Shown here in pieces: positions 5,197-9,756 of a DNA stretch of 32,000 bases. The stretch spans positions 690,700 to 722,699 of the forward strand of contig NZ_CP011382.1 in the NCBI RefSeq assembly GCF_000734895.2, written 5' to 3'. The DNA comes from Calothrix sp. 336/3 (GTDB lineage Bacteria > Cyanobacteriota > Cyanobacteriia > Cyanobacteriales > Nostocaceae). A program made the position numbers and the translations under genes. The notes below the pieces were generated by a model. The model did not search any database. It was not told the origin of the DNA and saw only the letters and a program-made list of their open reading frames with translations. Within the stretch, counting starts at the first letter, position 1. Every line of letters begins with the position of its first letter.

Positions 5197-6702
5197 GTGA
5201 AAATTAGTAGCAATAACCTTATGAGTGTTTCTAGTATCGCTGAGTCGCAAAGAGAGCAAGAGATAAAATCCCTGAAAACATTTTTAGCTCTCAGTCTACT
5301 AGGTTCTTTTGTATTCCATATTGGTGTACTGGCTTCCGGGATTGGTAACTTTTTGGCAAGAACTCCCGACTTAGAAGAAGAACCCATAGAAATAACCTTT
5401 GTAGAACCGACACCGATAGAAACACAGCCACCAGTAGAAGCAAAATTAGAAAAGCAACCAGAAGTTAAACCGGAGATACGCAAGGAAGAGAAAGTAGTCG
5501 TTGCCACCCCTGAACCTATGCAGAAAGTCCAACCCTTGAAGGTGGAAAGGGTACAACCCGAAAAACCCAGGGAAGTCGAGAGGGTGGAAAGGGTGCAACC
5601 AGAAAAACCTGTGGAAAGAAATATTTCTAGGGAAATACAGAGGGAGAGAACTGTTGTCAATCCCAATCCTGTATCTGTGGCAAAACCCAACCCAGAGAAC
5701 CCCAGCAGTGATAAGTTAGTGGGGAGACTGCGAGGTATCAGGGATAGCAGAGCAACACCGACGGATAATAGTAGTAGTAATGCGATTTCTCCACTGACTT
5801 CTAACTCTGGAAATGGGGTGACTGTAGAAAGTGGAAATGGGAATGGTAACGGTAACGGCAATAGTAATAACAATGGTGGCGATCGCCTAGGAATTCCTTC
5901 AGAACGTCGCTCACGGGGAATCATTTCCAGCGCACCCACCCAACCGAGAACCCCCAATATAGAAAGTGGCGAACCCTCCTCTCAACTCTCCTCTCCTCGT
6001 TCCGGAAATGGGCGAGCCGCCTGTCGGGAATGTAACACCAGCTACCCAGAGCAAGCCAGAAGACGCGGTGTGGAAGGTCGGGTAGAAGTAGCAGTAGATA
6101 CCGACTCCCAGGGAAATGTGACGAATGTTCGTGTGACTAAATCCAGTGGTAGCGAAGAGTTAGATCGGGCACACGCAGAACAGGCAAGACGATGGAAATT
6201 AAAACCTTCGGAAAGCGGCAGACAGGGGGTAAATATTGCCACAGAATACGCCATCCAAGGTTCTCGCCGCCATCGAGAGGTTCGGGAGCGAAGACAACAA
6301 CGTGAGGCAAGGGAAAGAACTAGGGAAGTGGCAACTGATACTAGTAATCAAAGGGAAGAAACACCCAGACGCAGACGTTTAGAAGCTTCCCTAAATAATT
6401 CCGAAGTTGCGACAACCAGACGCAGAAGACGTATTGAAACCACATCCGAGGAAACTCGCCGTTCTGTAGAACGTAGTCAAACCCCAGTCAGGGAGAGATT
6501 GTCACGGAGATTACGCAGAAATACAGAAGCCACCCGTGTTACACGCAGTGAGTCCACACCATCCACACCTATCCGCAGACGCAGGCGAGAAATTAACCAA
6601 TCTAATTCAGATTCTGGCAACAGACTGAGAAACGCTTTGCGTCGTCGTCGAGAGCTTCCAACTGCTGCACCTGTCGCACCTGCTCCACCACAACCGGAAT
6701 AA
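5197..6702 (+). CDS. TonB-like energy transducer with an arginine-rich C-terminal extension
   Basis: N-terminal TM helix LALSLLGSFVFHIGVLASGIG, Pro/Glu/Lys-rich spacer (EPTPIETQPPVEAKLEKQPEVKPE...), and a TonB_C-like block YPEQARRRGVEGRVEVAVDTDSQGNVTNVRVTKSSGSEELDRAHAEQARRWKLKP. It is divergent from exbBD. The start is GTG 5197 or ATG 5221. Confidence 0.75.
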   Translation: MKISSNNLMSVSSIAESQREQEIKSLKTFLALSLLGSFVFHIGVLASGIGNFLARTPDLEEEPIEITFVEPTPIETQPPVEAKLEKQPEVKPEIRKEEKVVVATPEPMQKVQPLKVERVQPEKPREVERVERVQPEKPVERNISREIQRERTVVNPNPVSVAKPNPENPSSDKLVGRLRGIRDSRATPTDNSSSNAISPLTSNSGNGVTVESGNGNGNGNGNSNNNGGDRLGIPSERRSRGIISSAPTQPRTPNIESGEPSSQLSSPRSGNGRAACRECNTSYPEQARRRGVEGRVEVAVDTDSQGNVTNVRVTKSSGSEELDRAHAEQARRWKLKPSESGRQGVNIATEYAIQGSRRHREVRERRQQREARERTREVATDTSNQREETPRRRRLEASLNNSEVATTRRRRRIETTSEETRRSVERSQTPVRERLSRRLRRNTEATRVTRSESTPSTPIRRRRREINQSNSDSGNRLRNALRRRRELPTAAPVAPAPPQPE

Positions 6703-6844
6703 AGCACAATCGGGTTCAGTTAATGAGATTTGGTTTTTGAAACATAGCCTGGAACCCTTGATAAAGTGATCAACCGCTTCCTATATTGAGAAACTGTTAT
6801 GATGAGGAAAAATCAGTATAATCTCTGAATATTCTTGTTAAGTT

Positions 6845-7279
6845 ATGGAACCAGTAACCTTAACAGCCGTAGGAACTGCGATCGCTACTATAGTTTTAAC
6901 TAAGGCTTTAGAAAAAACAGGCGAAAAGCTGGGAGAAGCTGCATTAGAAAAAAGTAACGAGTTAATCGCAAAGCTACGCCAGAAAAATAAAGTACCTTTG
7001 TTAGCGAATGCGCCAGAGGGAAACGTACAGGAAGCGTTAGATTATGGTCAAGCTGTGTTGGAGTTGAAAGCCGCAGCCGATACAGATACCGAAATTGCTC
7101 AATCGGTGCGGGAAGTAGAAGCAGCCGCAAATGCTGACCCCCAAGTAGCACCGAAAGTTCAGGCTTTAGCAAATGACCTCAACTCACAACCAGCAGGTGT
7201 GATCAATAATGCAAAGTTAGCTGAATCTATTGAAAAATTAGTTCAGGTGGGTACTAACTATGGTGGTATTCACATTTGA
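6845..7279 (+). CDS. helical N-terminal module of a STAND/NLR-like protein, ending at an in-frame TGA
   Basis: 144-aa ORF with a hydrophobic first helix VTLTAVGTAIATIVLTKAL, then an Ala/Glu/Lys-rich sequence that looks predicted-helical. It is in the same reading frame as the NB-ARC ORF downstream, and only one stop (7277-7279) separates them. Confidence 0.6.
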   Translation: MEPVTLTAVGTAIATIVLTKALEKTGEKLGEAALEKSNELIAKLRQKNKVPLLANAPEGNVQEALDYGQAVLELKAAADTDTEIAQSVREVEAAANADPQVAPKVQALANDLNSQPAGVINNAKLAESIEKLVQVGTNYGGIHI

Positions 7280-7351
7280 CTAAAGTCGCCCGAACAGGAA
7301 CGGGTAAAGTCAAATCCTGAAATACCGCAAAATTTACCCCTGAGTGGGGTA

Positions 7352-9283
7352 GTGAAATTTGTCGGACGTGATGAAGAACTGGAAGAACTCCATAAACTTT
7401 TGCAAGAAAATAACCAAGTAGCCATTGCAGCTATTTTGGGAATGGGTGGACTGGGTAAAACAGAACTCGCCTTGCAATATGCCATGACTCAGCGCGAAAA
7501 CTACAAAGGTGGACTGTGCTGGTTACAGGCGAAAGTTGAGGATTTTGGCGTTCAAGTGGTGCAGTTTGCCAGAACTCAGCTTGATTTAAAGCCACCAGAA
7601 GATTTTGATTTACCTACACAAGTACAATACTGCTGGCGGAATTGGCGTGAGGGTAATGTGCTGCTGGTTGTGGATGATCTCACAGATTATCAGCAAATCA
7701 GACCTTACCTACAGGGCGCATCTTCCCGATTTAAAGTGTTGATGACTACCCGCAAAAAGTTGGGTGCAGGCATCAAGCAATTATCTTTAGATGTATTACA
7801 ACCAGATGCAGCGTTGGAGTTGTTACGGTCTTTGCTGGCAGAAACACCAGGGCGAATTGAGAGAGAATTAGATGTAGCAAAACAGTTGTGCGAATGGCTG
7901 GGGTATTTGCCTTTGGGTTTAGAGTTGGTGGGGCGATATCTGGCGCGGAAACAGGATTTATCCCTCTCGAAAATGATGCAGCGTTTAGAGAAAAAGCGAT
8001 TAGAACAAGATGCACTGGACAAGCCAGATGCTGATATGACAGCACAACGCGGAGTGCAAGCCGCCTTTGAGTTGAGTTGGGAGGACTTAGCAGAGGATGA
8101 TCAGTTATTAGGCTGTGTACTCAGTTTATTTGCAACCGCACCCATACCCTGGAACTTAGTAGAACAGTGCCTACCAGACAAAGACGAGGAAGATTTAGAA
8201 AAAATTCGAGATAATAAGCTGCTGTATCTGCATCTACTCCAGCGCAAAGGTGAAGGAATTTATCAACTACATCCCCTACTGCGGGAATTTTTCCAATCTA
8301 AGTTTACAGGTTTAGAGCAAGCAGAGGAATTTAAGCGATCGTTTTGTCAGGTAATGGTAGCAGTTGCTAAAAAAATTCCTGAGACTCCTACCCTTGAAGA
8401 AATTAACGCTGTTTCCCTTGCCATACCACACATAGCTGAAGTAGCAAACAATCTCATTCAATATGTCAGTGATGAAGATTTAATTTGGCATTTCGTTGGC
8501 TTGGCTAACTTCTATGAGGGACAAGGGTTATATACCCAAGCCGAACCTTGGAGAAAACAGTGTTTATCAACAGTACAAAACCGCTTGGGAGACAATCACT
8601 CCGATGTCGCCTCCAGCCTTAACAATTTGGCATATCTCTACAATTCCCAAGGAAAGTACGATCAAGCCGAACCTTTGTTTTTCCAAGCTTTAGAACTCAG
8701 ACAACGCCTGCTGGGAGAAAATCATCCCGATATCGCCTCCAGCCTTAACAATTTGGCATTACTCTACAATTCCCAAGGAAAGTACGATCAAGCCGAACCT
8801 TTGTTTTTCCAAGCTTTAGAACTCAGACAACGCCTGCTGGGAGAAAATCATCCCGATGTCGCCACCAGCCTTAACAACTTGGCATTACTCTACTATTCCC
8901 AAGGAAAGTACGATCAAGCCGAACCCCTGTTTCTCCAAGCGTTAGAACTCTATAAACGTCTGCTGGGAAACAATCATCCCCTTGTCGCCACCAGCCTCAA
9001 CAACTTGGCATATCTCTACAATTCCCAAGGAAAGTACGACCAAGCCGAACCCCTGTTTCTCCAAGCTTTAGAACTCAGACAACGCCTGCTGGGAGACAAT
9101 CATCCCCATTTCGCCCAAAGCCTTAACAACTTGGCATTACTCTATAATTCCCAAGGAAAGTACGACCAAGCTGAACCCTTGTTTCTCCAAGCTTTGAATA
9201 TTTTAGAGCGAAGTTTAGGAGAGAATCATCCTAATACTGTGAGAGTGCGTGAGAATTTAGCAGATTTACGCGATCATCTCTAA
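7352..9283 (+). CDS. NB-ARC (STAND) NTPase with C-terminal TPR repeats (NLR-like)
   Basis: FVGRDEEL lead-in, P-loop GMGGLGKT, Walker B LLVVDDL, LMTTR, and a GLPL-like motif YLPLGLELVG. Six 42-aa kinesin-light-chain-type TPR units follow (NLAxLYxSQGKYDQAEPLFxQAL...LGxNHP). The only available start is GTG 7352, right at the NB-ARC boundary. Confidence 0.9.
   Translation: MKFVGRDEELEELHKLLQENNQVAIAAILGMGGLGKTELALQYAMTQRENYKGGLCWLQAKVEDFGVQVVQFARTQLDLKPPEDFDLPTQVQYCWRNWREGNVLLVVDDLTDYQQIRPYLQGASSRFKVLMTTRKKLGAGIKQLSLDVLQPDAALELLRSLLAETPGRIERELDVAKQLCEWLGYLPLGLELVGRYLARKQDLSLSKMMQRLEKKRLEQDALDKPDADMTAQRGVQAAFELSWEDLAEDDQLLGCVLSLFATAPIPWNLVEQCLPDKDEEDLEKIRDNKLLYLHLLQRKGEGIYQLHPLLREFFQSKFTGLEQAEEFKRSFCQVMVAVAKKIPETPTLEEINAVSLAIPHIAEVANNLIQYVSDEDLIWHFVGLANFYEGQGLYTQAEPWRKQCLSTVQNRLGDNHSDVASSLNNLAYLYNSQGKYDQAEPLFFQALELRQRLLGENHPDIASSLNNLALLYNSQGKYDQAEPLFFQALELRQRLLGENHPDVATSLNNLALLYYSQGKYDQAEPLFLQALELYKRLLGNNHPLVATSLNNLAYLYNSQGKYDQAEPLFLQALELRQRLLGDNHPHFAQSLNNLALLYNSQGKYDQAEPLFLQALNILERSLGENHPNTVRVRENLADLRDHL
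8486..9241 (+). repeat. tandem 126-bp (42-codon) TPR-coding repeats: one diverged unit plus five near-identical units (8612, 8738, 8864, 8990, 9116)
   Basis: Direct reading of the sequence. Units 8612-8737 and 8738-8863 differ at 3 of 126 nt. Confidence 0.9.
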
Positions 9284-9363
9284 TGAGAACAGGAAAATTT
9301 ACCTTTTCCAGCCTACGTGATTGTGGTTGAATTTAGTACACCCCTTTGTTTTGTGGCGAGAAA

Positions 9364-9756
9364 ATGAGTCAAATTCAAGAAAAACACACTACTGCAATGG
9401 ATTTGGCAGAAGCTGCGATAGTCGCCAAGCTTCGGGGTGACTTAGAACAAGCGTCCTTGCTTACCCGACAAGCATTTGAAAATGAACTAGCCGCAGCAGA
9501 ATTAATTGTTAATCAATTAGATGCTGAACCCACTCGCTCGATTTTGCATCGTAGTGCGGCAACTCTGGCGATCGATTGTGGAGAGTTGAAAATAGCGGAA
9601 CGTTTGATTGCAACAGCTTTATCTGGAAATCCTCCTGAAGAAATTGCCTCCCAATTGAAGGATTTGTTTATACAAATTAATTTACACCCTTACTTACAGC
9701 GTCGCGGCATAAATATTGATGACGAGCAAATAAGGGAATTCCAAATAAAAAAATAA
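9364..9756 (+). CDS. hypothetical helical protein (130 aa) directly downstream of the NLR-like gene
   Basis: ORF in the track; I prefer ATG 9364 (MSQIQEKH...) over TTG 9346. Ala/Leu/Glu-rich, with no recognised family. Confidence 0.5.
   Translation: MSQIQEKHTTAMDLAEAAIVAKLRGDLEQASLLTRQAFENELAAAELIVNQLDAEPTRSILHRSAATLAIDCGELKIAERLIATALSGNPPEEIASQLKDLFIQINLHPYLQRRGINIDDEQIREFQIKK

What the first reader, a model, noticed from the sequence alone, without database searches (positions are those of the whole stretch)
6845..9283. NLR/STAND-like gene split by a single in-frame TGA between the N-terminal module and NB-ARC
ORFs 6845-7279 and 7352-9283 are in the same frame. Reading through the TGA at 7277-7279 gives ...VGTNYGGIHI*LKSPEQERVKSNPEIPQNLPLSGVVKFVGRDEELEEL..., and the 72-nt gap contains no other stop. 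From memory, the post-stop peptide (IPQNLPxSGxxxFVGR) is the linker that usually precedes the P-loop in cyanobacterial NB-ARC/TPR proteins, so it looks like coding sequence. The downstream ORF has only a GTG exactly at the NB-ARC boundary and no obvious SD. Four explanations are possible: a very recent nonsense pseudogenisation of a defence or cell-death NLR; a sequencing error; regulated UGA read-through (the stop is followed by C, a reportedly weak termination context); or a true two-polypeptide arrangement. A conditionally read-through executioner-sensor fusion would be a novel control mechanism for a potentially suicidal protein.
Basis: partly seen in the sequence, partly recalled or inferred. 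Interest (0 to 1): 0.7.

Follow-up and report, generated by a model that had tools for sequence, protein, structure and literature searches.

The report
Conserved leaky stop joining effector and NLR
The in-frame TGA is not damage or a sequencing error: the same stop, followed by a small conserved RNA pseudoknot, joins a small cell-death-type protein to an NLR-like sensor in over 130 cyanobacterial loci, and most likely lets a few ribosomes read through to make a fused sensor, a control mechanism I found described nowhere for bacterial chromosomal genes.

Summary
ORF 6845-7279 (144 aa) and the NB-ARC/TPR ORF share a frame and are separated by one TGA (7277-7279).

This is not a pseudogene or a sequencing error:
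- In 76 loci from different Nostocales species, the homologous small ORF always ends in TGA (72 of 76 followed by C). The downstream STAND NTPase, NB-ARC or NACHT, is always in frame with no further stop.
- A frame-agnostic DNA pattern search found 79 more cassettes, all with the same arrangement.
- A 5-bp stem starts 8 nt after the UGA, and a 4-bp loop-to-downstream helix forms with it an H-type pseudoknot. Both helices show compensatory changes across 133 distinct sequences.
- No conserved start codon follows the UGA.
- One lineage carries a +1/-1 compensated frameshift across the pseudoknot that restores the frame into the NB-ARC.
- Four related classical two-gene loci use TAG, TAA or TGA-T, a different frame, their own ATG and a second copy of the C-terminal motif.

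Best explanation (about 0.7, inferred): programmed UGA read-through. It would yield abundant effector-plus-motif protein and rare effector-motif-NLR fusion from one mRNA. I found no paper describing this.

The parts
6758..6787 (+). Sigma-70-like promoter match (TTGATA-18-TATATT) upstream of the small ORF. There is no comparable site between the two ORFs.
   Evidence: This is a consensus match only (10 of 12) and is weak evidence.
6845..7276 (+). Small ORF of 144 codons. It encodes an all-alpha, Bell-like putative membrane-targeting cell-death effector with an N-terminal hydrophobic helix (MEPVTLTAVGTAIATIVLTKAL; Glu at position 2).
   Evidence: 187 homologues, and 366 clusters at 50% identity, nearly all 120-160 aa and stand-alone. 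AlphaFold2 gives 7 helices at pLDDT 70. There is no Pfam, PADLOC or PDB match.
7229..7276 (+). Variable C-terminal motif of about 16 aa, rich in Gly, Asn and Gln (EKLVQVGTNYGGIHI). It is a candidate amyloid signalling motif and is encoded only once in this locus.
   Evidence: the N-terminal domain is conserved while the tail falls into several discrete motif families. Relatives L063 and L161 have the matching motif repeated at the N-terminus of the NLR. L064 has a BASS7-like motif in front of the same cassette.
7277..7279 (+). In-frame UGA, the proposed recoding (read-through) site. It is followed by C7280, giving UGA-CUA.
   Evidence: The stop is TGA in 76 of 76 genome loci and in all 79 pattern matches. 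The +4 base is C in 72 of 76. The next codon is CTA 39, CTG 33, CTC 2, CCA 1, TTG 1. The background frequency of TGA-C is 5 of 149.
7280..7287 (+). 8-nt spacer (CUAAAGUC) between the UGA and stem 1.
7288..7305 (+). Stem-loop. Stem 1 pairs 7288-7292 (GCCCG) with 7301-7305 (CGGGU). The loop is 7293-7300 (AACAGGAA).
   Evidence: RNAalifold predicts it independently. 97.7% of cells are paired, against at most 43% for slid controls, and 43 cells changed on both sides against 13.7 in shuffles (0 of 500). In 133 distinct cassettes 98.8% are paired, with CG/UA, CG/UA/GC and GC/CG exchanges.
7296..7318 (+). Pseudoknot stem 2. Loop bases 7296-7299 (AGGA) pair with 7315-7318 (UCCU). The A-rich connecting loop 7306-7314 (AAAGUCAAA) is nearly invariant.
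   Evidence: 92-94% of cells are paired. The compensatory pair sets are GGGA/UCCC 71, AGGA/UCCU 9, GAGA/UCUC 8, GGCA/UGCC 2, CGGA/UCCG 2 and GGAA/UUCC 1. No shuffle reached the observed value (0 of 500 and 0 of 2000).
7280..7351 (+). 24 post-stop codons (LKSPEQERVKSNPEIPQNLPLSGV) with no ATG, GTG or TTG. They would form the linker of the read-through product.
7352..9283 (+). NB-ARC/TPR NLR-like ORF as annotated, from the GTG. The P-loop GMGGLGKT is at 7439-7462, NB-ARC spans about 7370-8008, and the TPR_12 array includes 4.8 tandem 126-nt units at 8586-9195.
6845..9283 (+). Predicted full read-through product: 812 residues (144 + 1 + 667) in the order effector, motif, linker, NB-ARC, TPR.
   Evidence: This is inferred and has not been shown experimentally.

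Best explanation
The locus is one translational unit with a programmed, leaky UGA.

What I propose happens:
- Most ribosomes terminate at 7277-7279 and release the 144-aa protein, which is a Bell-like helical effector plus a short C-terminal amyloid-type motif.
- A minority decode the UGA and continue in frame through a 24-codon linker into the NB-ARC/TPR sensor, giving an 812-aa effector-motif-NLR fusion. The decoding tRNA is presumably tRNA-Trp.
- Read-through would be favoured by the weak UGA-C context and by an H-type pseudoknot starting 8 nt downstream.

The functional logic is inferred. In classical Bell/NLR pairs the sensor carries its own N-terminal copy of the effector's C-terminal motif. 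Here the single motif upstream of the UGA would serve both products. Ligand-induced oligomerisation of the rare fusion would cluster the motifs, nucleate the amyloid fold and template the abundant free effector, which then kills the cell.

Shown here: conservation of the UGA, its context, the frame and the pseudoknot; the absence of a conserved start; and the contrast with classical pairs.

Inferred, not shown: that read-through occurs, which residue is inserted, what the ratio of products is, and that amyloid templating and cell death follow.
For: 1. The stop is conserved as UGA specifically. It is TGA in 76 of 76 genome loci, followed by C in 72, and never TAA or TAG, although neighbouring synonymous sites differ by 0.2-0.4. 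In the same loci the background is TAA 78, TGA 39, TAG 32, with TGA-C only 5 of 149.
2. The downstream NTPase is always in frame 0 with no further stop. This holds when it is NB-ARC, and also when it is a NACHT with a 300-1100-codon ORF.
3. A frame-agnostic DNA pattern search found 79 more cassettes. Every P-loop found (65 of 79) was in frame 0, across 19 different UGA-to-P-loop distances. The upstream ORFs include not only Bell-like proteins but also ones with TIR-like and alpha/beta-hydrolase-like sequence motifs.
4. The pseudoknot 8 nt after the UGA has compensatory changes in both helices. One covarying pair links a synonymous Pro third position with an Arg/Gln second position, which points to constraint at the RNA level.
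5. There is no in-frame ATG, GTG or TTG in the first 19-23 codons, apart from L036, where TTG directly follows the stop. The first candidate start varies between loci. In NACHT group A it is codon 71, although codons 13-70 have pN/pS 0.11.
6. L091, L109 and L148 carry +1 nt in the pseudoknot loop and -1 nt about 24 nt later. The peptide between changes frame, but the frame into the NB-ARC is restored.
7. Controls: four classical relatives (L063, L061, L160, L161). The junctions read in three of them (L063, L160, L161) have stops TGA-T, TAG-G and TAA-C, spacers of 4-68 nt and a different frame. All four NLRs have their own ATG and a second motif copy at the N-terminus.
8. The window's cassette matches the consensus pattern with 0 mismatches, and both ORFs are intact.
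Against: - There is no direct evidence of a read-through product. I had no proteomics, ribosome profiling or reporter data.
- The first ~16 post-stop codons show no peptide-level constraint. This also fits an untranslated RNA element.
- In most NB-ARC loci a GTG or TTG lies at codons 20-26, close to where protein constraint begins, so internal initiation cannot be excluded for those loci.
- No sense-codon variant of the UGA was found. The two apparent 'W' proteins are, or probably are, gene-calling artefacts: the DNA behind P0143 has TGA, and I did not check the DNA behind P0389.
- Both stems are short (5 and 4 bp). The hairpin alone is only modestly more stable than shuffles (z = -1.84).
- Membership of the small protein in the Bell family, and amyloid formation by its tail, are untested. 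There were no fold or profile hits.
- As far as I know, pseudoknot-stimulated read-through has not been demonstrated on bacterial ribosomes.
Confidence: 0.7

Rival explanations
1. This is a genuine two-polypeptide operon without read-through. The NLR starts at an internal GTG or TTG (7352 in this window). The UGA plus pseudoknot is a coupling, pausing, attenuation or mRNA-stability element that sets the effector:sensor ratio. The shared frame is a relic of an ancestral fusion, held in place because the RNA element itself is conserved.
For: pN/pS is about 1 with low synonymous change over the first ~16 post-stop codons. GTG/TTG candidates lie at codons 20-26 in most NB-ARC loci. All annotation pipelines call two genes.
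Against: - The candidate starts are not conserved in position or presence. The first is at codon 41 in L030, 38 in L072 and 71 in NACHT group A, where 58 strongly constrained codons lie upstream of it.
- All length differences between UGA and P-loop preserve the frame, across 19 distance classes.
- The +1/-1 compensated frameshift across the element is unexplained if this stretch is untranslated.
- Coupling does not explain why the stop must be UGA with +4 C, the weakest termination context.
- The NLR would lack the N-terminal motif that its classical relatives carry.
Confidence: 0.17
2. The UGA encodes selenocysteine and the downstream structure is a SECIS-like element bound by SelB.
For: There is an in-frame UGA with a conserved stem-loop a short distance downstream.
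Against: - No homologue has Cys, or any sense codon, at this position.
- The site lies between a variable tail and a linker with no peptide constraint, not in a redox centre.
- The structure is a 5-bp stem plus pseudoknot only 8 nt from the UGA, unlike the longer bacterial SECIS hairpins (my own knowledge). Rfam finds nothing there.
- The cyanobacteria surveyed have SelD and YbbB, and the survey does not count them among Sec-incorporating species (PMC1273633).
- There is no tRNA-Sec in the window.
Confidence: 0.03
3. The TGA is a recent nonsense mutation (pseudogene) or an assembly or sequencing error at 7277-7279.
For: None beyond the single-window view. A few related loci are truly degenerate: L051, L068, L082b, L087, L105 and L128.
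Against: The same TGA is present in about 155 cassettes from independent genomes and metagenomes. It has a conserved context and flanking RNA structure, and both ORFs are intact and under purifying selection.
Confidence: 0.01

Closest known systems
Bell-domain / BASS amyloid-signalling gene pairs next to NLRs in filamentous bacteria (Dyrka et al. 2020, bioRxiv 10.1101/2020.01.06.895854), and the fungal HET-S/NWD2 paradigm
   Same: The small protein is helical, about 140 aa, with a hydrophobic N-terminal helix and an acidic residue at position 2. It has a short variable C-terminal motif and lies immediately upstream of, and collinear with, an NB-ARC/TPR or NACHT NLR. The hosts are multicellular cyanobacteria. 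Close relatives (L063, L161, L160) are classical pairs with the motif duplicated on the NLR. L064 carries a BASS7-like motif.
   Different: Here the NLR ORF has no start codon and no motif copy of its own. The two ORFs are in frame, separated by a conserved UGA and pseudoknot. None of the motif strings from these loci appears in the supplementary tables of that study, whose screen was pair-based, and the paper does not mention stop codons or read-through. Homology of the 144-aa protein to Bell could not be tested.
Programmed stop-codon read-through signals: MuLV gag-pol (stop, 8-nt spacer, pseudoknot), alphavirus and plant-virus 'UGA-CUA/CGG' contexts, and the phage Qbeta coat/A1 leaky UGA (my own knowledge)
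   Same: There is a single in-frame stop between a major short product and a minor C-terminally extended one. The stop identity and 3' context (UGA CUR) are conserved. An H-type pseudoknot starts 8 nt downstream, with an A-rich loop. As with Qbeta, the extended product would co-assemble with the short one.
   Different: This is a chromosomal bacterial immune or cell-death locus rather than a virus. The cassette is modular and is used in front of several NTPase classes and behind several effector classes. The stems are shorter (5 and 4 bp). Activity on bacterial ribosomes is unproven.
All-in-one NLRs with an N-terminal effector domain (Bell-NLR, HeLo-NLR, TIR-NLR)
   Same: The read-through product would have exactly this architecture.
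   Different: A stop codon makes the free effector the main product. True uninterrupted fusions of this small domain are rare, and those seen lack the cassette (P0387, P0328).
Bacterial selenoprotein genes (UGA plus SECIS)
   Same: An in-frame UGA is followed by a conserved RNA structure.
   Different: There are no Cys homologues and no redox context. The structure type and spacing differ, and the Sec trait is not reported in the cyanobacteria surveyed.

Membership tests
STAND NTPase / NLR-like (NB-ARC + TPR) | An NB-ARC domain with a Walker A P-loop, followed by a C-terminal repeat sensor domain. | tested here: met
   Pfam gives NB-ARC at E 1.9e-16 and TPR_12 at E 2.6e-106. The P-loop GMGGLGKT is at 7439-7462.
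Bell/BASS-NLR amyloid signalling pair (Dyrka et al. 2020) | A small (~120-140 aa) alpha-helical protein with a hydrophobic N-terminal helix and an acidic residue at position 2 or 3. | tested here: met
   The sequence starts MEPVTLTAVGTAIATIVL. AlphaFold2 predicts an all-helical protein.
Bell/BASS-NLR amyloid signalling pair (Dyrka et al. 2020) | Sequence homology to the Bell-domain profile. | not testable with these tools
   No Bell model is in Pfam, NCBIfam or PADLOC as searched. There is no PDB sequence or fold hit. The accession is absent from the paper's supplementary tables.
Bell/BASS-NLR amyloid signalling pair (Dyrka et al. 2020) | The same short motif is present at the C-terminus of the effector and at the N-terminus of the adjacent NLR. 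| tested here: not met
   In this window, and in all cassette loci, the NLR ORF has no second motif copy. The feature is met only in the classical relatives L063, L061, L160 and L161.
Bell/BASS-NLR amyloid signalling pair (Dyrka et al. 2020) | The effector gene lies immediately upstream of the NLR gene and is collinear with it. | tested here: met
Bell/BASS-NLR amyloid signalling pair (Dyrka et al. 2020) | The motif forms amyloid or prion-like fibrils and transmits the fold. | not testable with these tools
   This needs fibril assays or a Podospora-type prion assay.
Programmed stop-codon read-through (recoding) signal | A single stop, conserved in identity, between two ORFs that stay in frame across divergent homologues. 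| tested here: met
   plus the compensated frameshift.
Programmed stop-codon read-through (recoding) signal | A conserved 3' context and a downstream RNA structure supported by covariation at about 8 nt. | tested here: met
Programmed stop-codon read-through (recoding) signal | No independent initiation site for the downstream ORF. | tested here: inconclusive
   There is no conserved start, and none before codon 71 in NACHT group A. GTG/TTG do occur at codons 20-26 in most NB-ARC loci, including GTG 7352 here.
Programmed stop-codon read-through (recoding) signal | The extended protein is demonstrated. | not testable with these tools
   This needs a western blot, mass spectrometry, ribosome profiling or a reporter.
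Selenoprotein gene (UGA + bacterial SECIS) | Cys-containing homologues at the UGA position, and Sec machinery in the genome. | tested here: not met
   There are no Cys or other sense variants. I did not search the host genomes for the machinery. The literature does not count the cyanobacteria surveyed among Sec-incorporating species. Rfam has no hit.

The most novel reading that the evidence does not exclude
A modular recoding cassette (UGA-CUR, an 8-nt spacer and an H-type pseudoknot) is the standard junction between cell-death effectors and NLR sensors in filamentous cyanobacteria. The effectors include Bell-like proteins and ORFs with TIR-like or alpha/beta-hydrolase-like motifs, most ending in an amyloid-type motif.

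Pseudoknot-stimulated UGA read-through would make a rare effector-motif-NLR fusion that nucleates polymerisation of the abundant free effector. The sensor and its executioner would then share one copy of the signalling motif, and their ratio would be fixed by translation.

As far as I know, this would be the first conserved pseudoknot-dependent programmed read-through in cellular bacterial genes, and a new way of wiring an NLR signalosome.
Probability: 0.6. Interest if true: 0.92.

Novelty: new variant of a known kind. Interest (0 to 1): 0.85.

Why it matters
- **Recoding in bacteria.** Apart from selenocysteine, release factor 2 (prfB), dnaX and a few phage cases, programmed recoding is thought to be rare in bacteria. 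A conserved stop-plus-pseudoknot read-through signal reused in more than a hundred chromosomal loci would be a new class. It could be tested directly in a genetic model, because the cassette is present in Anabaena/Nostoc PCC 7120-type chromosomes.
- **Immunity and cell-death biology.** It would show how a potentially suicidal NLR system sets a very low sensor:effector ratio. It would also show how an amyloid-type signalling motif can diversify freely, since one copy serves both partners. Pair-based screens missed these loci for that reason.
- **Annotation.** Hundreds of cyanobacterial NLR genes are currently given arbitrary start codons: MKFVGR, MVKFVGR, MPLSGV and so on. At least one pipeline translated the UGA as Trp.

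Tried and rejected
1. **P0143 (198 aa) appeared to carry Trp in place of the stop, suggesting a natural sense variant.** Rejected: its DNA (L081) has TGA, so the W is a gene-calling artefact. P0389 shows the same pattern, but I did not check its DNA.
2. **'The post-stop peptide is conserved, therefore it is coding.'** Rejected for codons 1-16, where conservation is at the RNA level (pN/pS about 1, low pS). It holds only from about codon 17.
3. **An outer helix pairing UGACU (7277-7281) with AGUCA (7308-7312), from the single-sequence minimum-free-energy fold.** Not adopted. All its positions are near-invariant, so no covariation is possible, and the few variants break pairs. It also could not exist while the UGA is in the A site.
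4. **A short hairpin involving GACUNNAGUC at the stop itself.** It is not maintained in the CTG-TAC variants.
5. **The purine-rich loop as a Shine-Dalgarno sequence for re-initiation.** There is no start codon within reach downstream.
6. **Fold and profile searches on the 144-aa protein** (Pfam, PADLOC, PDB by sequence, Foldseek against PDB) gave nothing significant. 'Bell-like' therefore rests on features and context only.
7. **Rfam** found nothing at the junction.
8. **Literature searches** for read-through or stop codons in cyanobacterial NLR or Bell systems found no description of this.
Full report
**1. The observation**

- An ATG ORF runs from 6845 to a TGA at 7277-7279 (144 codons).
- 72 nt follow with no stop.
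- The ORF as listed starts at GTG 7352 and ends at 9283, in the same frame.

Pfam finds NB-ARC and a strong TPR_12 array in the downstream part, and nothing in the upstream 144 aa. The window is Calothrix sp. 336/3, where the two ORFs are annotated as separate proteins.

**2. First hints that this is systematic**

- The 120 best homologues of the NLR, all from Nostocales, are mostly annotated as starting at slightly different points just before the NB-ARC: MKFVGR, MVKFVGR, MPLSGVV, MGRDEEL and so on. This is what gene callers produce when the true ORF is cut just upstream.
- All 187 homologues of the 144-aa ORF are stand-alone proteins of about 140-150 aa. They have a conserved N-terminal domain and a variable C-terminal tail of about 16-20 aa, rich in Gly, Asn and Gln, that falls into discrete motif families.
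- A profile search of 1.84 billion representative proteins gave 366 clusters, again almost all 120-160 aa.

**3. The junction in other genomes**

I examined 80 loci from different GTDB species representatives.

- The small ORF ends in TGA in 76 of 76 usable loci, followed by C in 72.
- The codon after the stop is CTA 39, CTG 33, CTC 2, CCA 1, TTG 1. It therefore does not supply a conserved start.
- In every locus with an NB-ARC P-loop nearby, the P-loop is in frame 0 with no other stop.
- In about 20 loci the downstream protein is instead a NACHT-type NTPase. It is still in frame, with 300-1100-codon ORFs and the same junction sequence.
- Among 149 other long ORFs in the same loci, stops are TAA 78, TGA 39 and TAG 32, and only 5 are TGA-C.

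The stop is therefore under selection to be UGA in the weakest termination context, not merely to be a stop.

**4. A conserved RNA structure**

The nucleotides after the UGA are more conserved than the peptide they encode.

Stem 1:
- RNAalifold, run without guidance, predicts a 5-bp stem starting 8 nt after the UGA. In the window it pairs 7288-7292 with 7301-7305.
- 97.7% of cells pair, against at most 43% when the partner strand is slid.
- Three of the five pairs show double changes: CG/UA, CG/UA/GC and GC/CG.
- One covarying pair joins a synonymous third position of a Pro codon with the second position of an Arg/Gln codon. Protein selection would not produce that.

Stem 2:
- Four loop bases (7296-7299) pair with 7315-7318, which makes an H-type pseudoknot.
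- 92% of cells pair, with GC/AU exchanges at two positions.

Across the union of 133 distinct cassettes:
- Stem 1 is 98.8% paired.
- Stem 2 is 93.8% paired, with the pair sets GGGA/UCCC, AGGA/UCCU, GAGA/UCUC, GGCA/UGCC, CGGA/UCCG and GGAA/UUCC.
- No shuffle reached the observed values.
- The connecting loop AAAGUYAAA is almost invariant.

Rfam has nothing at this position.

**5. Is the stretch after the UGA translated?**

The evidence is mixed.

Against, or neutral:
- pN/pS is about 0.8-1.9 in the first ~16 codons, with depressed synonymous change. That indicates RNA constraint and no peptide constraint.
- pN/pS falls to about 0.26 only from about codon 17.
- In most NB-ARC loci a GTG or TTG lies at codons 20-26.

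For:
- Apart from L036, where TTG directly follows the stop, there is no ATG, GTG or TTG in the first 19-23 codons anywhere. The first candidate start varies in position, falling at codon 41 in L030 and codon 38 in L072.
- In NACHT group A the first candidate is codon 71, although codons 13-70 have pN/pS 0.11, from 46 synonymous and 18 non-synonymous differences.
- All length variation between the UGA and the P-loop preserves the frame: six length classes in the genome NB-ARC loci and 19 distances in the metagenome set.
- L091, L109 and L148 carry +1 nt in the pseudoknot loop and -1 nt about 24 nt downstream. The eight codons between are read in another frame of the conserved nucleotide sequence (QGTGKVKS instead of RERAKLNP), but the frame into the NB-ARC is restored.

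A compensated frameshift across an element whose peptide is irrelevant is hard to explain unless ribosomes must pass in frame from the UGA into the NLR.

**6. Natural controls**

Four related loci have the classical arrangement described by Dyrka et al. They are L063, L061, L160 (whose NLR is 89% identical to the window's) and L161. I read the stop, spacer and frame in three of them; L061 was judged from its ORF list only.

| Feature | Classical loci | Cassette loci |
|---|---|---|
| Stop and context | TGA-T, TAG-G, TAA-C (L063, L160, L161) | TGA, followed by C in 72 of 76 |
| Spacer before the NLR | 17, 4 and 68 nt (L063, L160, L161) | none; the NLR continues in frame |
| Frame of the NLR | different (L063, L160, L161) | same |
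| NLR start | its own ATG (all four) | no conserved start |
| Second copy of the motif on the NLR | present (all four) | absent |

An example of the duplicated motif is ..LAEKIGIVVQGG.. at the effector C-terminus and MAEKIGVVNYGK.. at the NLR N-terminus. After its own motif, the classical NLR joins the same sequence that follows the linker in cassette loci (TPINW.. in NACHT loci, IPQNLPLSGVVKFVGR in NB-ARC loci).

The cassette therefore replaces 'stop, ATG and second motif copy'. This is the main reason to think the motif upstream of the UGA also serves as the N-terminal motif of the sensor.

**7. Breadth**

I searched metagenome contigs with a DNA pattern taken from the cassette alone, with no protein information. 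It found 79 matches.
- Wherever enough sequence was present, the TGA closes a long ORF and opens a long in-frame STAND NTPase ORF.
- Upstream ORFs are mostly Bell-like proteins of 130-160 aa. Judged by sequence motifs only, they also include alpha/beta-hydrolase-like ORFs (L091, L109, L148; another type in L114, L118, L132, L140) and a TIR-like ORF (L111). Most end in a Gln/Asn/Gly-rich motif.
- The cassette also occurs in 6.41-Mb Anabaena/Nostoc PCC 7120-type chromosomes, where two annotations disagree on the NLR start.

**8. Comparison with what is known**

- Context and features fit the Bell/BASS-NLR amyloid signalling systems of filamentous bacteria. The defining 'motif on both partners' is not met here, and homology to Bell could not be tested.
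- That paper, and the Kaur et al. survey of NTP-dependent conflict systems, mention neither stop codons nor read-through. The motif strings of these loci are absent from the Dyrka supplementary tables.
- Further searches found no description of the arrangement.
- Mechanistically the closest analogues are viral read-through signals, namely a stop, an 8-nt spacer and a pseudoknot, and UGA-CUA contexts, together with the Qbeta coat/A1 pair. These comparisons come from my own knowledge.
- Selenocysteine is unlikely. There are no Cys variants and no redox context, the structure type differs, and the cyanobacteria surveyed are not counted among Sec-incorporating species.

**9. Verdict**

The locus is one member of a large, previously unremarked class in which an effector ORF and an NLR ORF are joined by a conserved UGA and pseudoknot.

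The best explanation is programmed UGA read-through giving a major short effector and a minor effector-NLR fusion (confidence about 0.7). The main rival is independent internal initiation with the RNA element acting in coupling or regulation (about 0.17).

The mechanism is inferred from comparative evidence. A reporter assay, tagging or ribosome profiling would settle it.

Noticed in passing
L067 and L076 (about 40-50 codons after the UGA); proteins P0017, P0020, P0023: Some NLR homologues carry an identical in-frame 8-residue insertion (VLTERSRS) just before the P-loop (..QENNQVLTERSRSVAIAAILGMGG..). It looks like a small mobile or repeat insertion that is tolerated in frame.
   Followed up: no
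L081:700-1147: In this metagenome contig the NB-ARC ORF breaks off after ..QENNQ and runs into tandem, proline-rich repeat-like sequence (..PRQIQPSRT.. units) with several stops. The NLR has probably been disrupted by a repeat element.
   Followed up: no
window 8586-9195: The TPR region is a tandem array of 126-nt (42-aa) units, 4.8 copies at 90% identity. Orthologous NLRs range from about 640 to 813 aa, which suggests variation in repeat number in the sensor domain.
   Followed up: partly
P0143 (L081:169-765) and P0389: Public protein predictions for two cassette loci show 'W' at the stop position. For P0143 the DNA has TGA, so the gene caller translated it as Trp. I did not check the DNA behind P0389. 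Such entries could be mistaken for natural fusions.
   Followed up: partly
window 7277-7281 with 7308-7312: The single-sequence fold also pairs UGACU, which includes the stop codon, with AGUCA in the conserved A-rich loop. All positions are near-invariant, so covariation cannot test this. It might be an alternative conformation that masks the stop.
   Followed up: partly
L082 (4004 and 9648); L064 (about 360 and 4400); L001, L033 and L049, all on NZ_KK073768.1: Several genomes or contigs carry two or three cassette loci, sometimes about 5 kb apart and with different C-terminal motif families. This points to paralogous expansion with motif diversification.
   Followed up: no
Calothrix sp. 336/3, outside the window (AKG20974.1 / AKG24489.1): The supplementary table of Dyrka et al. 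lists a separate BASS7 Bell/NLR pair in this same genome, with the two genes 1725 nt apart. Both arrangements therefore coexist in one organism.
   Followed up: no
P0387 (823 aa) and P0328 (700 aa): These are rare uninterrupted fusions of the Bell-like N-terminal domain. P0387 is fused to a different P-loop GTPase-like protein, and P0328 to a truncated NACHT C-terminal region with HEAT-like repeats. Neither has the cassette linker.
   Followed up: no
window 5197-6702 and 9346-9756: The upstream neighbour is a 501-aa protein with a TonB C-terminal domain and a long Arg/Glu/Ser-rich low-complexity tail. The downstream neighbour is a 136-aa ORF (TTG start) with no Pfam or PADLOC match. I could not tell whether either belongs to the system.
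   Followed up: partly
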